Source: a virus
Taxonomy: Duplodnaviria > Heunggongvirae > Uroviricota > Caudoviricetes
Length of the DNA stretch: 20,880 nucleotides
Strand: one strand, 5' to 3'
IMG/VR virus record: IMGVR_UViG_3300029080_000072
Below, one piece after another: positions 1 through 9,970 of the stretch. Each line of letters starts with the position of its first letter. Positions within the stretch are counted from its first letter, which is position 1. The position numbers were made by a program, and so were the translations under genes. The notes under the pieces are model-generated. The model did no database searches. It was not told where the DNA came from and saw nothing but the letters and a program-made list of their open reading frames with translations.

Positions 1-522
1 TCCTGCGCTGGAAGACGCTGACTGAGCCGACGTCGCGGCCTGCCCGGCTGATGTGCTGGCTGCACGTGCTGAGCCTGTAGCATCAGTCGCATGGGTTGCC
101 GCCTCACGGGCTGATGTGCCGGCATCGCTGGCTGACTTCTTCGCGGCTGCCGTGTCCTGTGCCACTGCGGACGCGTTACGCGCCACCTCTTCCACCATCA
201 GTTCAAAGCGGCGCAGTGCCTCCGGACGGGCATCATCCTCCGTCATGGCACCGAGAAAATCATTCAGCGTACCCGGTTGTGAGTCTTCATACACGGTGAT
301 GGTCCCGGCATGCGATGGCGGGAAGCCTTCCACCAACAGAATAACGCTGTACTGACCGTACTCAACGTCCATGCTGTAACGCCCTGCTTCATCCGGATTT
401 TCAGATGCCACCGTGTTCACCACCACCGTGGTGCTGTTACGTTTTGCTTTCAGCTGGATTGTGCAGTTCTGTACTGGTTTACCTGCACCGTCTTTCAGTA
501 CACCTGAAATCTTTACTGCCAT
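1..522 (-). CDS. stf: Side tail fiber protein Stf, N-terminal part (C-terminus runs off the window start)
   Basis: Minus-strand translation from ATG at 522-520 gives MAVKISGVLKDGAGKPVQNCTIQLKAK..., continuing into the Ala/Ser/Thr-rich segment (...ASTSAGQAATSAQSASSSAG) with no stop before position 1; matches remembered lambda Stf N-terminus. Confidence 0.85.
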   Translation of the reverse strand, partial: MAVKISGVLKDGAGKPVQNCTIQLKAKRNSTTVVVNTVASENPDEAGRYSMDVEYGQYSVILLVEGFPPSHAGTITVYEDSQPGTLNDFLGAMTEDDARPEALRRFELMVEEVARNASAVAQDTAAAKKSASDAGTSAREAATHATDATGSARAASTSAGQAATSAQSASSSAG

Positions 523-532
523 ATTCACCCCA

Positions 533-560
533 CAAAAAAGCCCGCCTGAACCGGCGGGCT
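533..560 (-). terminator. Putative rho-independent terminator between lom remnant and stf
   Basis: GC stem gcccgcc/ggcgggc (540-559) followed on the minus strand by a T6 run (complement of 533-538). Confidence 0.5.
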
Positions 561-586
561 GTCATAACACTGTGTTACCTGGCTAA

Positions 587-1124
587 TCAGAACTTATAAC
601 CGACACCCACGATGAAACCGTCAGTGCGCCAGTCGCCACTGCCGGAGCCTTCATAAACAATATCAATGGCCACGGATTCGGTCGGGTTAAACTGCACGCC
701 AGCCCCCCACGCCAGAGACGTGTTGCTGCGGCGACCGTCATCACTTCCGGTCAGCACTTCGTGCGTTTTCCCCTTGTTGTCAGTTACGCGGAGATAATCC
801 CCGGAGAAAGTCGAAATACGGCTGTAAGCCACACCCGCCATCGCATACGCGCTGAACCATTCATTCACGCGCACAGACGGCCCCGCCATCACGCTGAACC
901 AGCGGTTACGCACGGAATCTTCATGCCAGCGGGTATCGCTGTAATGAGTCAGCTGGCGATTCTTGTCTTCTGCATAGCTGAATGACGTCACCATCCCCAG
1001 CGTGTCCGTAAACTCATAACGGTATTTCACGTTAATCCCGTTAAGATCATCGCTGCCGGGAACGTTCGTCGAGGCATGAAGATACCCCGCGCTCAGCGTG
1101 GACTGATGTTCAGACGCCCATGCA
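587..1124 (-). pseudogene. lom: lom (Ail/Lom outer membrane protein) remnant lacking start codon and most of the signal peptide
   Basis: In-frame translation gives ...SGAPAWASEHQSTLSAGYLHASTNVPGSDDLNGINVKYRYEFTDTLGMVTSF...GFIVGVGYKF, matching lambda Lom from the end of its signal peptide to the C-terminus; upstream of about 1124 the sequence switches to terminase A. Confidence 0.8.
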
Positions 1125-1380
1125 GGCGCACCGGATAACCGACACGGGCAGACTTCACCACATTCACCTCACGGATGTAGTCGCTGCCCATCGCATTCAT
1201 GATGGCCCGCTGAAAGGGCAGTGTTTCCCAGCGCCCTTCCTGGTATGCGGATTCTTTCGGGAGATAGTAATTAGCATCCGCCCATTCAACGGCAGTCTGT
1301 GGCTCCGGCCTGAACAGTGAGCGAAGCCCGGCGCGGACAAAATGCCGCAGCATGTTAACCTGACTGTTCGATATATTCAC
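1125..1380 (-). pseudogene. A: Terminase large subunit gpA, N-terminal ~85 codons only, fused out of frame to lom
   Basis: MNISNSQVNMLRHFVRAGLRSLFRPEPQTAVEWADANYYLPKESAYQEGRWETLPFQRAIMNAMGSDYIREVNVVKSARVGY matches the remembered lambda gpA N-terminus; after ARVGY the frame runs ~13 codons into out-of-frame lom sequence and stops at 1093. Confidence 0.85.
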
Positions 1381-1900
1381 TCAGCAACCCCGGTATCAGT
1401 TCATCCAGCGCGGCTGCTTTGTTCATGGCTTTGATGATATCCCGTTTCAGGAAATCAACATGTCGGTTTTCCAGTTCCGGAAAACGCCGCTGCACCGACA
1501 GGGGGATCCCGTCGAGAATACTGGCAATTTCACCTGCAATCCGCGACAGCACGAAAGAACAGAATGCGGTTTCCACCACTTCAGCGGAGTCTCTGGCATT
1601 TTTCAGCTCCTGTGCGTCGGCCTGCGCACGCGTAAGTCGATGGCGTTCGTACTCAATAGTCCCTGGCTGGAGATCTGTCTCGCTGGCCTGTCGCAGTTCT
1701 TCAACCTCCCGGCGCAGCTTTTCGTTCTCAATTTCAGCATCCCTTTCGGTATACCATTTTATGACGGCGGCAGAGTCATAAAGCACCTCATTACCCTTCC
1801 CACCGCCTCGCAGAACGGGCATTCCCTGCTCCTGCCAGTTCTGAATGGTACGGATACTCGCACCGAAAATGTCAGCCAGCTGCTTTTTGTTGACTTCCAT
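1355..1900 (-). CDS. nu1: Terminase small subunit Nu1
   Basis: 181-aa product MEVNKKQLADIFGASIRTIQNWQEQGMPVLRGGGKGNEVLYDSAAVIKWY... is near-identical to lambda Nu1; its 3' end overlaps the A start as in lambda. Confidence 0.92.
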   Translation of the reverse strand: MEVNKKQLADIFGASIRTIQNWQEQGMPVLRGGGKGNEVLYDSAAVIKWYTERDAEIENEKLRREVEELRQASETDLQPGTIEYERHRLTRAQADAQELKNARDSAEVVETAFCSFVLSRIAGEIASILDGIPLSVQRRFPELENRHVDFLKRDIIKAMNKAAALDELIPGLLSEYIEQSG

Positions 1901-2288: not shown

Positions 2289-2483
2289 ATGTCAACTAAG
2301 AACAGAACCCGCAGAACAACAACCCGCAACATCCGCTTTCCTAACCAAATGATTGAACAAATTAACATCGCTCTTGAGCAAAAAGGGTCTGGGAATTTCT
2401 CAGCCTGGGTCATTGAAGCCTGCCGTCGGAGACTAACGTCAGAAAAGAGAGCATATACATCAATCCAAAGTGATGATGAATAA
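2289..2483 (+). CDS. Small conserved ORF near the lambda right end (hypothetical)
   Basis: 64-aa ORF MSTKNRTRRTTTRNIRFPNQMIEQINIALEQKGSGNFSAWVIEACRRRL...; the DNA resembles the lambda right-end region as remembered; function unknown. Confidence 0.4.
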   Translation: MSTKNRTRRTTTRNIRFPNQMIEQINIALEQKGSGNFSAWVIEACRRRLTSEKRAYTSIQSDDE

Positions 2484-2848
2484 ACATCCCGGTTTCTTCC
2501 ACCATCGCACCGGAAAAGCGACTATGAGGGTAACCCTGCGTCTGTCAGCACAGTAAAACCCGGTGTGCATCGTTTTTGATTATTCCCGCACACTCACGCA
2601 GAAGGAATTCCCCGTCGGGCTACGGTCATGGTTAATGCGGGAATACGGCGACGATACAGCGCAGCTAAAAGGGTAATGGACAGATAGAGCGGTTTATTTC
2701 ATTCCACAGGATTCTGAGTGCCCCCCTCCTCCAATAGGCTGAGCATCCACCTATATAGTTTTAGTTTTAATTTTCATCAATCCATTTAACTATCGTTTAA
2801 TTGTTGTCACATAGGATTCTGCCGTTTTTAACAATGCAGGATAATAAG

Positions 2849-3142
2849 ATGAAAAAAATGTTGTTTTCTGCCGCTCTGGCAATGCTTATTACAGGATGTG
2901 CTCAACAGACGTTTACTGTTGGAAACAAACCGACAGCAGTAACACCAAAGGAAACCATCACCCATCATTTCTTCGTTTCGGGAATTGGACAGGAGAAAAC
3001 TGTTGATGCAGCCAAAATTTGTGGCGGCGCAGAAAATGTTGTTAAAACAGAAACCCAGCAAACATTCGTAAATGGATTGCTCGGTTTTATTACTTTAGGC
3101 ATTTATACTCCGCTGGAAGCGCGGGTGTATTGCTCACAATAA
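2849..3142 (+). CDS. bor: Bor lipoprotein (serum-resistance lipoprotein)
   Basis: MKKMLFSAALAMLITGCAQQTFTV...GIYTPLEARVYCSQ has a lipobox (LITGC) and matches remembered lambda Bor; AGGA precedes the ATG at 2849; the tracked ORF start at 2801 is an upstream extension. Confidence 0.9.
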   Translation: MKKMLFSAALAMLITGCAQQTFTVGNKPTAVTPKETITHHFFVSGIGQEKTVDAAKICGGAENVVKTETQQTFVNGLLGFITLGIYTPLEARVYCSQ

Positions 3143-3635: not shown

Positions 3636-4129
3636 TGCTGACCCCACAAACAGATTTCACGCTCAATCTCACGACGAGTCATGAGACCTTTCCATTGCTT
3701 ACCGCCAGCATATGTCCAGCGACGTAGCTGATCACATGCGCCTTTGATATCGCCCTGGTTTATTTTGCGAAGAAGCGTCGATGTTCTGAAATTGCCAGCG
3801 CCCACGTTGTAAACGAACGAGTAAAGAGCGCCGCGCGTTGTTTCCGGTATATCAACTTTTATGTACGGGTTAATTTGTCTGGCGACCGTGGCAAGGTCTT
3901 TATTCAGGAGGGCTTTGCATTCTGCTTTGGTATACGTTTTACCGAGCATGATGTCTTTTCCTGTATGCCCGTGACATACAGTCCATACACCAACAATATC
4001 TTTGTATGGTATGTAGCTGACACCTTCCAGACCATCGTTACCACTTGGGCCAGTGATTAACACTGATGCTATAGCAATTGCTCCGCCACCAATAGCAGCA
4101 GCAACGGCTTTTCGTAATGATGGAGGCAT
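3632..4129 (-). CDS. R: SAR endolysin, phage-21/DLP12 RrrD type (T4-lysozyme-like)
   Basis: [59 protein letters not shown]... has an N-terminal Gly/Ala-rich signal-anchor-release segment followed by a lysozyme-like body; matches remembered R21/RrrD. Confidence 0.9.
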
Positions 4130-4344
4130 TATTCACCTCTCGCAGCCTTGCGCTTATCTTCTTTAATCTTGAAATAAAGGTTTGTCAGGTACGTCAGCAG
4201 GCCAAATACCAGGCTACCCAGCACACCTATTGCTGCCCACTGTGAGGGCGTGACTTTATCGAGCAGCTGTAAAAACCAGTAACCGGCACTACCTGCTGAG
4301 GTGCCATAGGCGACACCCGTTGTTAACTTATCCATGGATTTCAT
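4129..4344 (-). CDS. S: Class II holin (pinholin, S21/EssD type) with dual-start motif MKSM
   Basis: [71 protein letters not shown]; ATGs at 4344 and 4335 (Met1/Met4); GAGGTGGGG Shine-Dalgarno upstream; the tracked ORF start at 4389 is an extension. Confidence 0.85.
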
Positions 4345-4389
4345 AACCCCACCTCGCAGACAAAGCGGGTGTAAATTGAGGGAATACAA

Positions 4390-4932
4390 CGTATCGCAAA
4401 AAAGCAGAAACGTAACAGACTCGGAGTCAGTGAATAACTCAGGTATTGAGTTATCAGCTAATATCGAGACTCAAAAAATGGAAAAACCAGCTCGACGGCG
4501 GGTTTAAGCTGTGTGACGAAGTAACCACTCTTAACAGCATAACCAATTTTTTACGTACGTAAACCACTGAATGATATTTATGAGAATGCTACCGAGTGTT
4601 CAAAACACCACCACAAATACATAAGAAAACCTCAACAAATAACCAATAAATAATTTCAGACGTTATTTTTAGTTGATTTAAATTAAACTGCCGAATTATA
4701 GAACCTCCATAAATAACAACCATTAATATAAATTAGCTAATAGGTTTATTTTTGTTCAAATAAGAGCCATAAATAGGTTTCGATAGAAAAAGTTCAGATA
4801 AAAATAGAGATCTACTTCACAAATTAAATGAGAAACTAAAACTTACATCTTGAAATAATCACATTGATTAGATGAATATTTATCGCGCAGTGACATCATT
4901 TTTTAATAATAGTTCAAAAAAAAGGGCTCACG
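4390..4932 (+). promoter_or_regulatory. AT-rich ~540-bp upstream region of the porin gene (promoter/regulatory, exact elements not resolved)
   Basis: Very AT-rich non-coding stretch directly upstream of the porin ATG; AAGGG precedes the start. Confidence 0.4.
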
Positions 4933-6015
4933 ATGAAAAAATTAACAGTGGCAATTTCTGCTGTAGCTGCATCAGTACTGATGGCGATGTCTGCTCAGGC
5001 AGCTGAAATTTATAATAAAGACAGTAACAAGCTGGATCTATATGGGAAAGTTAATGCCAAGCACTACTTCTCCTCTAATGATGCAGATGATGGTGATACT
5101 ACTTATGCCCGTCTTGGCTTCAAAGGTGAAACCCAAATCAACGATCAACTGACTGGTTTCGGTCAGTGGGAATATGAATTCAAAGGCAACCGCGCTGAAT
5201 CTCAAGGCTCCTCCAAAGACAAAACCCGTCTTGCATTTGCAGGCCTGAAATTCGGGGACTACGGCTCAATCGATTACGGCCGTAACTACGGTGTAGCATA
5301 TGACATCGGTGCGTGGACTGACGTTCTGCCAGAATTCGGTGGCGATACCTGGACCCAAACAGATGTGTTCATGACTGGTCGCACCACTGGTGTTGCAACT
5401 TATCGTAACAACGACTTCTTTGGTCTGGTTGATGGTCTGAACTTTGCTGCTCAGTATCAGGGTAAAAATGACCGCACTGACGTAACTGAAGCTAATGGTG
5501 ATGGTTTCGGTTTCTCCACTACTTATGAGTATGAAGGATTCGGTGTAGGTGCAACCTATGCTAAATCTGACCGCACTAATAATCAGGTTATCTACGGTAA
5601 CAACAGCCTGAATGCATCTGGTCAAAATGCTGAAGTATGGGCAGCTGGTCTGAAATATGATGCGAACAACATCTATCTGGCTACCACCTATTCTGAAACC
5701 CAGAACATGACTGTTTTTGGTAATAACCATATTGCCAACAAAGCACAAAACTTCGAAGTAGTTGCACAATATCAGTTCGACTTCGGTCTGCGTCCGTCCG
5801 TTGCTTACCTGCAATCTAAAGGAAAAGACTTGGGTGCGTGGGGTGATCAGGACCTGGTTGAATATATTGATGTAGGTGCAACCTATTACTTCAACAAAAA
5901 TATGTCCACTTTTGTTGATTACAAAATCAACCTGATTGATAAGAGCGATTTCACGAAAGCATCTGGCGTTGCTACCGATGATATCGTTGCTGTAGGTATG
6001 GTTTACCAGTTCTAA
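4933..6015 (+). CDS. nmpC: OmpC/OmpF-family general porin (phage-borne NmpC/Lc-like), apparently intact
   Basis: 360 aa with signal peptide [23 protein letters not shown], typical porin beta-strand pattern and C-terminal ...VGMVYQF; matches remembered NmpC/Lc. Confidence 0.9.
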
Positions 6016-6133
6016 TTTGATTACTAAAAGATATGTTGCGGGAGGCTTTGCCTCCCCAACATATAAGTGGCTCCCTCAAGCCACTTCCTTTAGGAGCACA
6101 ACCTTGCTTCTAACTATATAAACCTTCTGTTAT

Positions 6134-6164
6134 ATATTACCCTTTATTTTTGGGGGCGTTGCAA
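6134..6164 (-). promoter_or_regulatory. Candidate late promoter downstream of Q (-35 TTGCAA, -10 TAATAT on minus strand)
   Basis: On the minus strand ttgcaa, a 19-nt spacer, then taatat, about 40-70 bp downstream of the Q stop; further hairpins at 6040-6057 and 6060-6081 could be the Q-modified terminator. Pattern-based only. Confidence 0.3.
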
Positions 6165-6176
6165 CGCCCCATTTTT
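6153..6176 (+). terminator. Rho-independent terminator downstream of porin
   Basis: ggggcgttgcaacgcccc hairpin followed by attttt. Confidence 0.6.
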
Positions 6177-6203
6177 AATAATTTTTAGTAAACAATTGGC
6201 ATA

Positions 6204-6587
6204 TTAATTAGAGTTATTAACAACGATATCCATCTCTAACCGGATATCTAATGCCATTAACATCCCTTCAATTATGCCCTCAGCCTTCTGTAACCTTTTC
6301 CCGATATAACCATCAGAGCAGCAATGCTTACCTGCCAGTGACATGAATGTCATACCGACTACATAATAATCTACTAATAAATCGTGCAAATCGCTGTTGT
6401 TCTTTTTCAGACGGGCCATGCACCCGCAAATAATCATCGCGTCATCGTCACAACATTGCGGGCGAGATTTTACTTTTGAAGTAATTAATCCCTTAAAACC
6501 GGCGGCAATGGACGACCAGGTCACATCTTCATGATTATTAGCCGCCCACGCTCCCCAACGCTCAAGAACCATCTGAATATCACGCAT
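6204..6587 (-). CDS. Q: Late antiterminator Q (phage-82/DLP12 QuuD type)
   Basis: [62 protein letters not shown]... matches remembered QuuD (127 aa); ATG at 6587 with upstream GGAG; the tracked 6602 start is TTG. Confidence 0.85.
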
Positions 6588-8337: not shown

Positions 8338-8967
8338 CTAAAACAAGGATAAACTTTGCCCTGCTCCAGGCGTTGGCTTTACAAATGTTACATCTTTAAT
8401 TCTTTCGCCTAGGAGAAAAAATTTGTCCAAAGATAGCGATGGTATTGTTGCAAACCCATCAGCCCCCTTTTTCCTAGCAACCCCTCTCACGTCCATGAGA
8501 ATTCGCCCTAATACGTTCATACCATAATAGTTACCTTCTGGGTCTTTACTGGCACCCCAGAATTGGTCCTTCTCTGAGTGTTCCACGATGAAATGGTCGC
8601 CTGTACTGTCTAACAGCGCAAAGAACGTATCCCAGTTCTGGCATAATTTTACGCATACACACCACTTCATAATCGAAACTCGATTCTTATCCCATCCTGC
8701 GCGAGTTTTGGATTCAAACGATCTTGCGGTCTGCTTGGCTTCATAGGGGTTTCCTTGAGTAATGATGGCCTTTTGTATATCCGGATAGTCTGGATATCGG
8801 CATGCTTGGTAAAGGATTTCACTTGATTGAATAGGCAACCCATTGATTAACAATGGATATCCTTTAGCCATGTTGGAAAGCCCCCCCCATTTTTCGGTGG
8901 TTTTCCTGAAGGAAACTGTGTTCTGTAGCGGATATAATCTATAGCTCATACCACTCATTATACCCAT
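8338..8967 (-). CDS. NADAR (YbiA/DUF1768-like) domain protein, predicted N-glycosidic/ADP-ribosyl hydrolase
   Basis: Motif pattern GGLSNM ... IQSSEILYQACRY ... IVEHSEKDQFWGA ... G.N.LGRILMDVR parallels E. coli YbiA (FSNF ... TSEHYFQAQKF ... VEHTENDAYWGDG ... GKNRLGYLLMELR); start ambiguous among ATGs at 8967, 8958, 8949, all overlapping the upstream gene. Confidence 0.7.
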   Translation of the reverse strand: MGIMSGMSYRLYPLQNTVSFRKTTEKWGGLSNMAKGYPLLINGLPIQSSEILYQACRYPDYPDIQKAIITQGNPYEAKQTARSFESKTRAGWDKNRVSIMKWCVCVKLCQNWDTFFALLDSTGDHFIVEHSEKDQFWGASKDPEGNYYGMNVLGRILMDVRGVARKKGADGFATIPSLSLDKFFLLGERIKDVTFVKPTPGAGQSLSLF

Positions 8968-9970
8968 TCCGCTTCATTAGTGGATACCAGCAGTCCAATG
9001 CGGGAGCACCTGTTGGTTCATAATCTCCCCACCAAAAAGCCAGCGGCACATTATTCGGGCAATTTCGATAAGTAAATGTTGTTCCCCCAAAACCCAAACC
9101 GTCAAAAGTAGAAAAACCTAGAGGTTTGAGCACCTCACTAGGGGTTTTCCTGTGCAGCAAGATATTAAAGCCGACTTTAGTAAGGATAGATTCGAAACGA
9201 TCCCTTGAGGCTTCATTTCTAAAACTATCAGAAGAGGCATATCCATCTCTGAATACGCCTTTGTAAAGCTCACACTCCTCGAATTTCTCGGGAGTATCTA
9301 CACTATATTTCCTTGGCCAGAAAACACCTGATTGAGCAGAACGACTTTTTCGGTTTTCAACCTCACGCATACCACCATTCTTCACGTGTACAAAAATGTT
9401 TCTATCCTTAAAAATATATTCTAATCGTCTTTTTATATTATAGTCAGATAACGTATGAGATGAAAAAAAATATACATTGAATTTAATATCTCTTAAATTA
9501 AATTTTAAAACAAAATTACTTATCGATTTGATGGCCTTTTCTCCTGAAAACGACACATCATCAATATATACAAATGTATCAAATTTATTTACTTCATCTT
9601 GAGTTGATGATTCAGTAACGATGTTAAATTTGATCCCTACTGTTTCATAAAGAGATTTAAGCAATTCCTTCTGACTAGAACCTTTTTTTTGAATATCTAA
9701 AAAACCTGCATATCTGAAGAATTTCGCGTTCTTTTCACTTCTTGCAATGGCTTTTATTTTTCGTTGATATTGACTTTCGGATAGGTAACCTGCATTAAGT
9801 AGATAAAGCGTTTCATCTAAGATAAATCGTCTATCCTCCACTGCAAATTGCTTAATCCATTTGCTGACATGTTCAGAGTTCATACCTTCAGCCGGAGGAT
9901 ATTTATAATCGCTCAACTTTTCAGCAATTTTATTGATTACTTTTTCACCAGATAAAATATTCGAGGACAT
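8939..9970 (-). CDS. Unassigned 343-aa protein (AT-rich cargo gene); weak PRTase-like DD motif; function unknown
   Basis: Uninterrupted ORF with AGGA 8 nt upstream of the ATG; FVYIDDVSFSGEKA resembles a type-I phosphoribosyltransferase PRPP motif; Trp/Gly-rich C-terminus; no family I recognise. Confidence 0.7.
   Translation of the reverse strand: MSSNILSGEKVINKIAEKLSDYKYPPAEGMNSEHVSKWIKQFAVEDRRFILDETLYLLNAGYLSESQYQRKIKAIARSEKNAKFFRYAGFLDIQKKGSSQKELLKSLYETVGIKFNIVTESSTQDEVNKFDTFVYIDDVSFSGEKAIKSISNFVLKFNLRDIKFNVYFFSSHTLSDYNIKRRLEYIFKDRNIFVHVKNGGMREVENRKSRSAQSGVFWPRKYSVDTPEKFEECELYKGVFRDGYASSDSFRNEASRDRFESILTKVGFNILLHRKTPSEVLKPLGFSTFDGLGFGGTTFTYRNCPNNVPLAFWWGDYEPTGAPALDCWYPLMKRNGYNEWYEL

What the first reader, a model, noticed from the sequence alone, without database searches (positions are those of the whole stretch)
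4390..6200. Intact porin moron embedded antisense in the Q-to-S late transcription unit
Q and the lysis genes are on the minus strand, but a complete OmpC-family porin gene with its own AT-rich ~540-bp promoter region sits between them on the plus strand, convergent with Q. Late transcripts from the Q-dependent promoter must read through about 1.6 kb of antisense porin sequence to reach S. The equivalent K-12 gene (nmpC) is, as I recall, disrupted by an IS element, whereas this copy appears intact. The Q-porin spacer contains a plus-strand terminator overlapping a candidate minus-strand late promoter.
Basis: partly seen in the sequence, partly recalled or inferred. Interest (0 to 1): 0.4.

Follow-up and report, generated by a model that had tools for sequence, protein, structure and literature searches.

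The report
Known prophage porin, outside late operon
This is an intact copy of the well-known NmpC/Lc porin gene carried by DLP12/PA-2-type lambdoid prophages of E. coli, and sequence homology places the phage late promoter on the far side of it, so late transcripts probably never cross the porin gene.

Summary
A 360-aa OmpC-family porin ORF (4933-6015, +) lies between a Q antiterminator gene (6204-6587, -) and an S21-type holin (4129-4344, -). It is intact, whereas K-12 nmpC carries IS5 after codon 346. It is not new. It is the NmpC/Lc porin moron of DLP12/PA-2 (90% aa identity, flanks 97-98% identical to K-12). The whole Q-porin-S block occurs in 2396 of 5426 complete E. coli genomes and the porin segment in 36 phage records. 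The Q-porin spacer is the porin 3'UTR, where the published IpeX sRNA maps.

The mechanistic claim, that late transcripts must read 1.6 kb of antisense porin, is not supported. Window 4564-4482 (-) is homologous to the annotated pR' cassette of 933W-type Stx phages: TTTACG-N16-TATGCT, then the leader TAAGAGTGGTTAC, then a hairpin. The Q of those phages is 77% identical to this one. Other relatives (cdtI, PhiR55_1, SfIV) show the same order: Q, antisense gene(s), this block, then late genes. PhiR5_1 and 933W have the block directly after Q. So the porin cassette sits between Q and its promoter.

The prophage here is defective. The promoter assignment rests on homology, not experiment.

The parts
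4933..6015 (+). Intact NmpC/Lc-type general porin gene. It encodes 360 aa, with signal peptide [23 protein letters not shown] and a C-terminal ...VYQF.
   Evidence: full-length Porin_1 match; 90% aa identity to K-12 NmpC (IS5 removed) and to PA-2 Lc; annotated intact in RefSeq.
6016..6176 (+). Porin 3'UTR, made of four or five stable hairpins ending in the porin terminator. This is the position of the published IpeX sRNA (167 nt, processed from the porin transcript, represses OmpC/OmpF).
   Evidence: fold of -61 kcal/mol, z = -7.7; nearly invariant in 7 loci, and PA-2 identical to K-12; literature statements on IpeX. The primary IpeX paper is not held, so the exact ends were not checked.
6153..6176 (+). 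Intrinsic terminator of the porin/IpeX transcript.
   Evidence: flagged by the terminator scan.: -13.9 kcal/mol.
6025..6064 (-). Long GC-rich hairpin followed by CUUUU only in the Q direction. It is a candidate terminator for transcripts leaving Q. If so, the Q-direction and porin transcripts overlap by about 150 nt.
   Evidence: -22.7 kcal/mol, z = -5.8; conserved, with a T-run of 4-5 in all 7 loci. Its function is inferred.
6204..6587 (-). Q antiterminator gene of the QuuD/933W type.
   Evidence: PF06530; distant match to the Q21 structures; 77% aa identity to 933W-type Q, diverging only after ...LEMD.
4734..4932 (+). Porin promoter region, the equivalent of the 199 bp whose deletion abolishes PnmpC activity in K-12. 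It includes a CRP-like site at about 4804-4824, annotated in the PA-2 record.
   Evidence: PMC11677980. PA-2 misc_binding 1363-1383, mapped onto the window by the alignment; conserved.
4889..4915 (-). SigmaE-type promoter motif, GAACTA-N16-TCACT, with an expected start near 4884. It matches the published '-121 to +650' reporter fragment for the DLP12 lysis operon.
   Evidence: the forward primer maps to 5005-4986 (-); sequence. The motif assignment is my inference.
4536..4563 (-). Homolog of the late promoter pR': -35 TTTACG (4563-4558), 16-nt spacer, -10 TATGCT (4541-4536), predicted start at A4529.
   Evidence: best sigma70 score in non-coding DNA on this strand; homologous to the annotated pR' of 933W-type phages; the Sakai dRNA-seq and Term-seq distance of 258 nt fits a start 6-7 nt after the equivalent -10.
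4472..4533 (-). Conserved pR' leader TAAGAGTGGTTAC (4533-4521), then hairpin AAACCCGC-CGTCGA-GCTGGTTT (4505-4484) and T-runs. This is a qut-like or first-terminator element. The stem carries a C/U mismatch in this allele.
   Evidence: the 13-mer is present once in 13 of 16 loci and once in the window; alignments.: -6.5 kcal/mol here, against -12 in K-12 and -12.6 in Sakai.
4129..4344 (-). Holin/antiholin gene essD (S21 type), the first late gene. Its 5'UTR runs from 4528 to 4345.
2849..3142 (+). The iss/bor lipoprotein gene, which is genuinely antisense inside the late operon, between Rz and nohD.

Best explanation
The region is the Q-nmpC-ipeX-pR'-S module of a defective DLP12/PA-2-type lambdoid prophage.

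The porin cassette has three parts: its own AT-rich, CRP-site-bearing promoter, the ORF, and a structured 3'UTR that yields IpeX and ends in an intrinsic terminator. It is a lysogenic-conversion moron. It is inserted in inverse orientation at the 3' end of Q, between Q and Q's target promoter pR'.

In a lysogen the porin is transcribed from its own promoter. By published work on Lc/NmpC, IpeX from its 3'UTR lowers OmpC/OmpF.

The late promoter homolog at 4563-4536 (-) fires away from the porin into S-R-Rz. Q acts in trans on RNA polymerase starting there. Q-dependent late transcripts therefore do not need to cross the porin gene.

Only transcripts that run past the end of Q could be antisense to the porin. 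These would come from the early rightward operon, and a Q-direction hairpin with a U-run at 6064-6025 is placed to limit them.

Shown here: gene content, intactness, homologies, positions. Inferred: promoter activity, Q dependence, and terminator function in this allele.
For: Identity of the module:
- establish gene content and order.
- Searches give 90% aa identity to NmpC and Lc.
- Searches show flanks 97-98% identical to K-12.

Frequency:
- The 1.8-kb porin segment is >=80% covered in 2466 of 5426 E. coli genomes.
- The 2.5-kb Q-porin-S block is >=80% covered in 2396 of 5426 genomes.
- 36 phage records hold the porin segment.

pR' assignment:
- A blastn of 4392-4610 hits about 300 Stx-phage records at the 3' end of Q, over query positions 47-129, E 2e-7 to 1e-16.
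- Those sites are annotated 'pR' putative late promoter' and 'terminator'.
- The alignment shows a shared -35 TTTACG, a -10, an invariant TAAGAGTGGTTAC and a hairpin whose loops vary.
- Q here is 77% identical to that Q.
- Sakai dRNA-seq and Term-seq place the pR' start 258 nt from tR'. On the Sakai sequence this falls 6-7 nt after the equivalent -10.

Same layout with other antisense inserts:
- cdtI, PhiR55_1 and SfIV.
- The uninterrupted state is seen in 933W-type phages and PhiR5_1.

Other support:
- The 13-mer occurs once in the window.
- It is the best sigma70-type match in non-coding DNA on the late strand.
- PnmpC activity in K-12 is reported.
Against: - No transcript data exist for this allele.
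- The hairpin after the pR' homolog is weakened here by a mismatch, -6.5 against -12 kcal/mol. In Sakai the equivalent hairpin is not the main 3' end, since transcripts run 258 nt. The true tR' of this module is therefore unidentified.
- A published reporter fragment for the DLP12 lysis operon is numbered from a start near 4884, a sigmaE-type promoter, not from 4529.
- The two papers on Q(DLP12) and this operon could not be read.
- Phage 1H12 has an 84%-identical Q and lacks the 13-mer. It has a different promoter-like sequence and a Sakai-like tR' directly after Q. Promoter type therefore does not track Q identity perfectly.
Confidence: 0.8

Rival explanations
1. pR' lies in the 188-bp Q-porin spacer, overlapping the porin terminator, and Q-modified polymerase reads about 1.6 kb of antisense porin to reach S.
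For: - This is the canonical position right after Q.
- There is a weak match, TTGCAA-N19-TAATAT, at 6164-6134.
- A late-direction hairpin with a U-run at 6064-6025 could act as tR'.
- 'TTGTTTAC..TAAAAAT' after the Q stop resembles the start of the 933W pR'.
- 1H12 has a promoter-like sequence and tR' directly after Q, followed by an antisense blc gene.
Against: - The 19-nt spacer and low score are poor for a late promoter.
- The -35 lies in a hairpin loop that varies between loci: TTGAGA, TTGCAA, TGGAAA.
- The spacer has no homology to any annotated pR', and the conserved leader 13-mer is absent from it.
- A full pR' homolog exists elsewhere in the window.
- The spacer's conservation and structure are accounted for by the porin 3'UTR and IpeX.
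Confidence: 0.07
2. In this defective prophage the lysis genes are a domesticated host-controlled operon. They are driven mainly by the sigmaE-type promoter next to the porin start codon (about 4915-4889, start about 4884). Q and pR' are secondary or vestigial.
For: - A published reporter fragment (-121 to +650) cites the finding that the DLP12 lysis cassette is regulated by RpoE.
- The motif GAACTA-N16-TCACT lies at the implied position and is invariant in 7 loci.
- The prophage lacks head and tail genes.
Against: - This is not exclusive of the pR' model. Such a transcript also runs away from the porin and must pass the pR' leader hairpin.
- The same module is present in viable phages such as ev099, Turner and the PhiR series, where a Q-dependent late promoter is required.
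- The primary papers were not readable.
Confidence: 0.1
3. The porin is a quiescent relic with no present role, and its intactness is incidental.
For: NmpC is described as quiescent or dispensable in laboratory strains, and IS5 disruption carries no cost.
Against: - The ORF is intact and full-length here and in RefSeq genomes.
- It is retained in over 40% of complete E. coli genomes, including a remnant locus that kept little else of the prophage.
- PnmpC is active in K-12.
- Amino-acid differences cluster in a few segments rather than being spread evenly.
Confidence: 0.03

Closest known systems
nmpC of cryptic prophage DLP12 (qsr') in E. coli K-12
   Same: The gene order is the same: rusA-ylcG-quuD, inverted porin, essD-rrrD-rzpD, borD/iss, ylcI, nohD. 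Both spacers are 97-98% identical, and the porin is 90% aa identical.
   Different: The K-12 copy is split by IS5 after codon 346, whereas this one is intact. The proteins differ in three short segments (about aa 181-190, 216-232, 263-268) with two in-frame indels. K-12 has the perfect-stem (G) version of the pR' leader hairpin and a 16-17-bp deletion in the S leader.
lc porin of phage PA-2 (GenBank J02580), with IpeX sRNA
   Same: Lc is an intact phage-borne porin in the same position and orientation, with 90% aa identity. The upstream region is 95% identical, and the 3' spacer is almost identical. The spacers of PA-2 and K-12 are identical to each other. Reviews describe IpeX as made from the porin promoter as part of the porin transcript and as repressing OmpC/OmpF.
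   Different: This is a different porin allele. About 6 differences in the spacer, mostly in hairpin loops. No expression data exist for this allele.
Q-pR'-tR' cassette of 933W/Sakai-type Stx phages, whose pR' transcript yields the StxS sRNA
   Same: Same Q family at 77% aa identity. The promoter, leader and first hairpin are homologous. pR' is constitutive and Q-antiterminated in those phages.
   Different: In those phages pR' overlaps the last codons of Q, and cargo such as tRNAs and stx lies downstream of tR' in the sense orientation. Here about 1.65 kb of inverted cargo separates Q from pR'. The Sakai tR' and StxS 3' part are absent, because homology ends after the first hairpin.
Lambda bor and lom (classical morons expressed from the prophage)
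   Same: Both are outer-membrane lysogenic-conversion genes with their own promoter and terminator in the late region. A bor/iss homolog is present in this window at 2849-3142, antisense to the late operon.
   Different: bor/iss really lies inside the late transcription unit, whereas the porin cassette lies upstream of pR'.
Phages cdtI, PhiR55_1 and SfIV
   Same: All share the architecture Q, then antisense gene(s), then the pR'-leader block, then late genes.
   Different: The inserted genes are unrelated to porins (hypothetical proteins, plus an IS element in SfIV).

Membership tests
General bacterial porin (OmpC/OmpF/PhoE family, Pfam Porin_1) | Full-length match to the 16-stranded porin domain | tested here: met
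   PF00267 residues 29-360 against profile positions 1-337 of 337, E 3e-153. NCBIfam porin OmpC subfamily, 518 bits against a cutoff of 484. E about 1e-135 to solved OmpC/OmpK36/PhoE structures.
General bacterial porin (OmpC/OmpF/PhoE family, Pfam Porin_1) | Sec signal peptide and C-terminal aromatic residue for outer-membrane assembly | tested here: met
   Read from the translation: [27 protein letters not shown]..., ending ...VYQF. The signal peptide is annotated on the PA-2 homolog.
General bacterial porin (OmpC/OmpF/PhoE family, Pfam Porin_1) | Forms trimeric diffusion channels in the outer membrane | not testable with these tools
   This requires an outer-membrane proteome or electrophysiology.
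NmpC/Lc lambdoid-phage porin | High identity to NmpC and Lc | tested here: met
   329/365 identical to each.
NmpC/Lc lambdoid-phage porin | Located between Q and the S-R-Rz lysis genes of a lambdoid prophage, on the opposite strand | tested here: met
IpeX sRNA | Lies in the untranslated stretch between the porin stop codon and its terminator, in a DLP12/PA-2-type element | tested here: met
   the spacer is homologous to K-12 and PA-2 with about 6 differences in 189 nt; strongly structured. Searches give the literature description.
IpeX sRNA | Sequence identity to the published 167-nt RNA, and processing and OmpC/OmpF repression | not testable with these tools
   The primary paper is not held. 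Rfam has no model that hits here.
Q antiterminator, 933W/DLP12 type | Phage_antitermQ domain and close similarity to Q of 933W-type phages | tested here: met
PF06530, E 4e-53; 77% identity.
Lambdoid late promoter cassette pR' (933W type) | Homology to an annotated or mapped pR', with sigma70 hexamers | tested here: met
Lambdoid late promoter cassette pR' (933W type) | Intrinsic terminator between the promoter and the first late gene | tested here: inconclusive
   The hairpin with T-runs at 4505-4472 is weak in this allele, -6.5 kcal/mol with one mismatch. It was not flagged by the scan. No Sakai-type tR' is present.
Lambdoid late promoter cassette pR' (933W type) | [quoted passage not shown] | not testable with these tools
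   This needs transcription assays.
Moron (extra gene cassette in a phage genome) | Own promoter and terminator, and present or absent between otherwise related genomes | tested here: met
   Terminator. Promoter activity in K-12. The empty site is seen in PhiR5_1 and 933W-type phages. Other cargo occupies the same site in other phages.

The most novel reading that the evidence does not exclude
The 3' end of Q in this Q family is a recurrent insertion point where inverted cargo is placed upstream of pR', shielded from late transcription. In the porin version, the Q-direction transcript and the porin/IpeX transcript would overlap convergently by about 150 nt (6025-6176).

On induction, early rightward transcripts leaving Q would then be perfectly complementary to IpeX and to the porin 3' end, and could switch them off. 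Conversely, abundant porin/IpeX RNA in lysogens could pair with leaky Q mRNA and damp Q expression.

Nothing here tests this. It rests only on the geometry of the two facing terminators.
Probability: 0.15. Interest if true: 0.45.

Novelty: already known. Interest (0 to 1): 0.15.

Why it matters
The porin and its IpeX-bearing 3'UTR are a textbook case of lysogenic conversion: a prophage replaces host porins with its own. This intact allele adds nothing new in kind.

The useful correction concerns the map. In this widespread module the late promoter lies downstream of the porin cassette, not next to Q. This changes three things:
- predictions about antisense transcription;
- how Q-to-S distances are read in prophage annotation;
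- where to look for the regulatory elements of the DLP12 lysis cassette, which has been linked to biofilm and vesicle phenotypes.

Tried and rejected
- Rfam at gathering threshold over the whole window, and at E<=1 over 4300-6300, found nothing. There is no model for IpeX or StxS.
- No tRNAs were found between Q and S.
- The strict promoter scan found nothing in either spacer. A looser matrix scan was needed.
- The primary papers could not be read: Castillo-Keller 2006, Highton 1985, Prilipov 1998, Rueggeberg 2013 and 2015, Thomason 2015.
- Phages with the same Q or S but without the porin were compared by megablast. This gave no discrimination, because Q, spacer, porin and the S-upstream region always co-occur at that stringency.
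- Direct alignment to 1H12 and PhiR55_1 was inconclusive at first.
- An E. coli locus with S plus 270 nt upstream but no porin turned out to be an IS1203-mediated deletion and was uninformative.
- Covariation in the IpeX hairpins was not pursued, because the 7 loci are almost invariant there.

Full report
**What is there**

The window carries a lambdoid late/nin region on the minus strand. In order it holds ybcN, ninE, ybcO, rusA and ylcG, then Q (6204-6587). Next comes a plus-strand porin ORF (4933-6015). After that come the holin essD (4129-4344), the SAR endolysin rrrD, and Rz/Rz1. Then follow plus-strand iss/bor (2849-3142), plus-strand ylcI, and nohD.

The porin matches Pfam Porin_1 end to end (E 3e-153) and passes the NCBIfam OmpC-subfamily cutoff. 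It has a signal peptide and ends in ...VYQF.

**Identity**

The 1.8-kb segment is at least 80% covered in 2466 of 5426 complete E. coli genomes and in 36 phage records. The 2.5-kb Q-porin-S block is contiguous in 2396 genomes, some of them with IS insertions.

The layout is that of cryptic prophage DLP12 in K-12: quuD, inverted nmpC, then essD-rrrD-rzpD and borD. Both spacers are 97-98% identical to K-12.

K-12 nmpC is split by IS5 after codon 346. The same split copy sits in a laboratory 434 isolate that acquired this DLP12 segment. With IS5 removed, NmpC is 90% identical to the window protein, and PA-2 Lc (J02580) gives the same figure. There are only two in-frame indels and no frameshift. 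The differences cluster in three short segments.

The gene is therefore an intact allele of a long-known phage porin.

**The Q-porin spacer**

The 188 nt between the porin stop and the Q stop fold into four or five hairpins (z = -7.7). They end in the plus-strand terminator at 6153-6176.

Reviews describe IpeX as a 167-nt sRNA of DLP12 made from the porin promoter as part of the porin transcript, which lowers OmpC/OmpF. From memory of the primary abstract, which I could not retrieve, ipeX lies between the nmpC stop codon and its terminator, and PA-2 has the identical sequence. In my alignment the PA-2 and K-12 spacers are indeed identical, and the window differs at about six positions.

A second hairpin (6064-6031, -22.7 kcal/mol) is followed by a U-run only in the Q direction. 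I read it as a terminator for transcripts leaving Q, which is an inference.

**Where the late promoter is**

The spacer next to Q has only a poor sigma70 match, TTGCAA-N19-TAATAT, and its -35 varies between loci.

The best match in non-coding DNA on the late strand is TTTACG-N16-TATGCT at 4563-4536. It lies inside a block (about 4590-4420) that is almost invariant in seven diverged loci.

A sensitive search with 4392-4610 hit about 300 Stx-phage records, exactly over 4564-4482. The hit falls at the 3' end of their Q genes. Those sites are annotated 'pR', putative late promoter' followed by 'possible rho-independent terminator'.

The alignment shows four shared elements:
- the same -35;
- a -10 at the same place;
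- an invariant TAAGAGTGGTTAC around the start;
- a hairpin whose stem is kept while the loop varies.

The Q protein here is 77% identical to that 933W-type Q and departs from it only after ...LEMD.

For Sakai, dRNA-seq and Term-seq put the pR' start 258 nt from the tR' 3' end. On the Sakai sequence that places the start 6-7 nt after the equivalent -10. The promoter class is therefore experimentally anchored in a relative.

**The same architecture elsewhere**

The 13-mer occurs once in the window and once in 13 of 16 fetched loci.
- In PhiR5_1 and 933W-type phages it follows Q directly.
- In cdtI it comes after two antisense genes.
- In PhiR55_1 it comes after one antisense gene.
- In SfIV it comes after an IS element and two antisense genes.

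The porin cassette (about 4565-6230) is thus one of several inverted cargos placed between the end of Q and pR'.

Phage 1H12 is an exception. It has an 84%-identical Q, lacks the 13-mer, and has a different promoter-like sequence with a Sakai-like tR' directly after Q.

**Consequence**

Q-dependent transcripts should start near 4529 and run into S, away from the porin. The claim that they must traverse 1.6 kb of antisense porin is not supported.

The '540-bp porin promoter region' is composite. It holds three things:
- The porin regulatory DNA. PnmpC lies within the 199 bp before the ATG in K-12, and there is a CRP-like site at about 4804-4824 taken from the PA-2 record.
- A sigmaE-type motif at 4915-4889 on the minus strand. 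It fits a published reporter fragment for the DLP12 lysis operon.
- The pR' cassette and the S leader.

What really is antisense inside the late operon in this window is iss/bor, and also ylcI.

**Caveats**

All promoter and terminator functions here are inferred from homology and sequence. The leader hairpin is weakened by a mismatch in this allele, -6.5 against -12 kcal/mol. In Sakai the equivalent hairpin is not the main 3' end, so tR' of this module is not identified. The papers on Q(DLP12) and RpoE control could not be read.

The prophage in the window is defective. The large terminase gene is truncated and joined to a lom fragment, as in strains E92 and E94, which match the first 2300 bases at 100%. 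In this host, 'late transcription' therefore concerns only the lysis cassette and a few leftovers.

**Verdict**

The feature is real and intact, but it is an already-known kind of element and very common.

Noticed in passing
window 1-1900: The prophage is defective. The large terminase gene is cut after about 90 codons (1117-1380) and abuts an N-terminally truncated Ail/Lom gene (587-1138) and a tail-fibre gene. All head and tail genes in between are missing. The first 2300 bases are 100% identical to E. coli strains E92 and E94 (bovine, China).
   Followed up: partly
window 2289-3142: iss/bor (2849-3142, +) and ylcI (2289-2483, +) lie antisense between Rz and nohD.
   Followed up: partly
window 4489: There is a T/G polymorphism in the stem of the pR' leader hairpin. 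T (a mismatch, -6.5 kcal/mol) occurs in the window, ev099, PA-2 and Turner. G (a perfect stem, -12 kcal/mol) occurs in K-12, 4C10 and ev243. It might change basal read-through into the lysis genes.
   Followed up: partly
window 4508-4528: The first 'CRP binding site' annotated in the 1986 PA-2 GenBank record maps onto the first 20 nt of the predicted pR' transcript, the conserved TAAGAGTGGTTAC leader, rather than onto porin regulatory DNA.
   Followed up: no
window 6195-6181 and 4566-4545 (minus strand): 'TTGTTTAC..TAAAAAT' just after the Q stop resembles 'GGTTTACGTACGTAAAAAAT' at the pR' -35. This may be a short repeat at both ends of the inserted cassette, or a relic of the old Q-pR' junction. 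It could also be chance in AT-rich DNA.
   Followed up: no
window 4889-4915 (minus strand): The sigmaE-like motif GAACTA-N16-TCACT lies 20-45 nt upstream of the porin ATG on the opposite strand and is invariant in 7 loci. Its position agrees with a published DLP12 lysis-operon reporter fragment numbered -121 to +650.
   Followed up: partly
window 5470-5740 (porin aa about 181-190, 216-232, 263-268): Nearly all differences from NmpC and Lc, including both indels, fall in three short segments. By analogy with OmpC these are probably surface loops, as expected for variation driven by phage or immune pressure.
   Followed up: no
L012 (E. coli Z1323MEC0001, yedK-fliE locus): A prophage remnant keeps only the porin with its promoter and 3' spacer, next to ybcM, ybcL and emrE. 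Q, S and the rest are lost, which suggests the porin cassette is retained on its own.
   Followed up: no
window 8338-9970 (minus strand): A NADAR-family gene and an overlapping 343-aa hypothetical gene sit between ybcN and a methyltransferase pseudogene in the nin region. They may be another accessory cassette.
   Followed up: no
L004 (phage 434 isolate 434B, OL657227): This laboratory 434 stock carries the K-12 DLP12 segment from ylcG through nmpC::IS5 to the lysis genes, annotated as a 'region of 434 nonhomology'. The module therefore supports growth of a viable phage even with 2.3 kb between Q and the S-proximal block.
   Followed up: partly
L010 (phage ev243) 1684-2827: In this phage record the porin is annotated as a shortened CDS plus a small upstream ORF. 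This suggests a frameshift near the 5' end in that phage or assembly.
   Followed up: no
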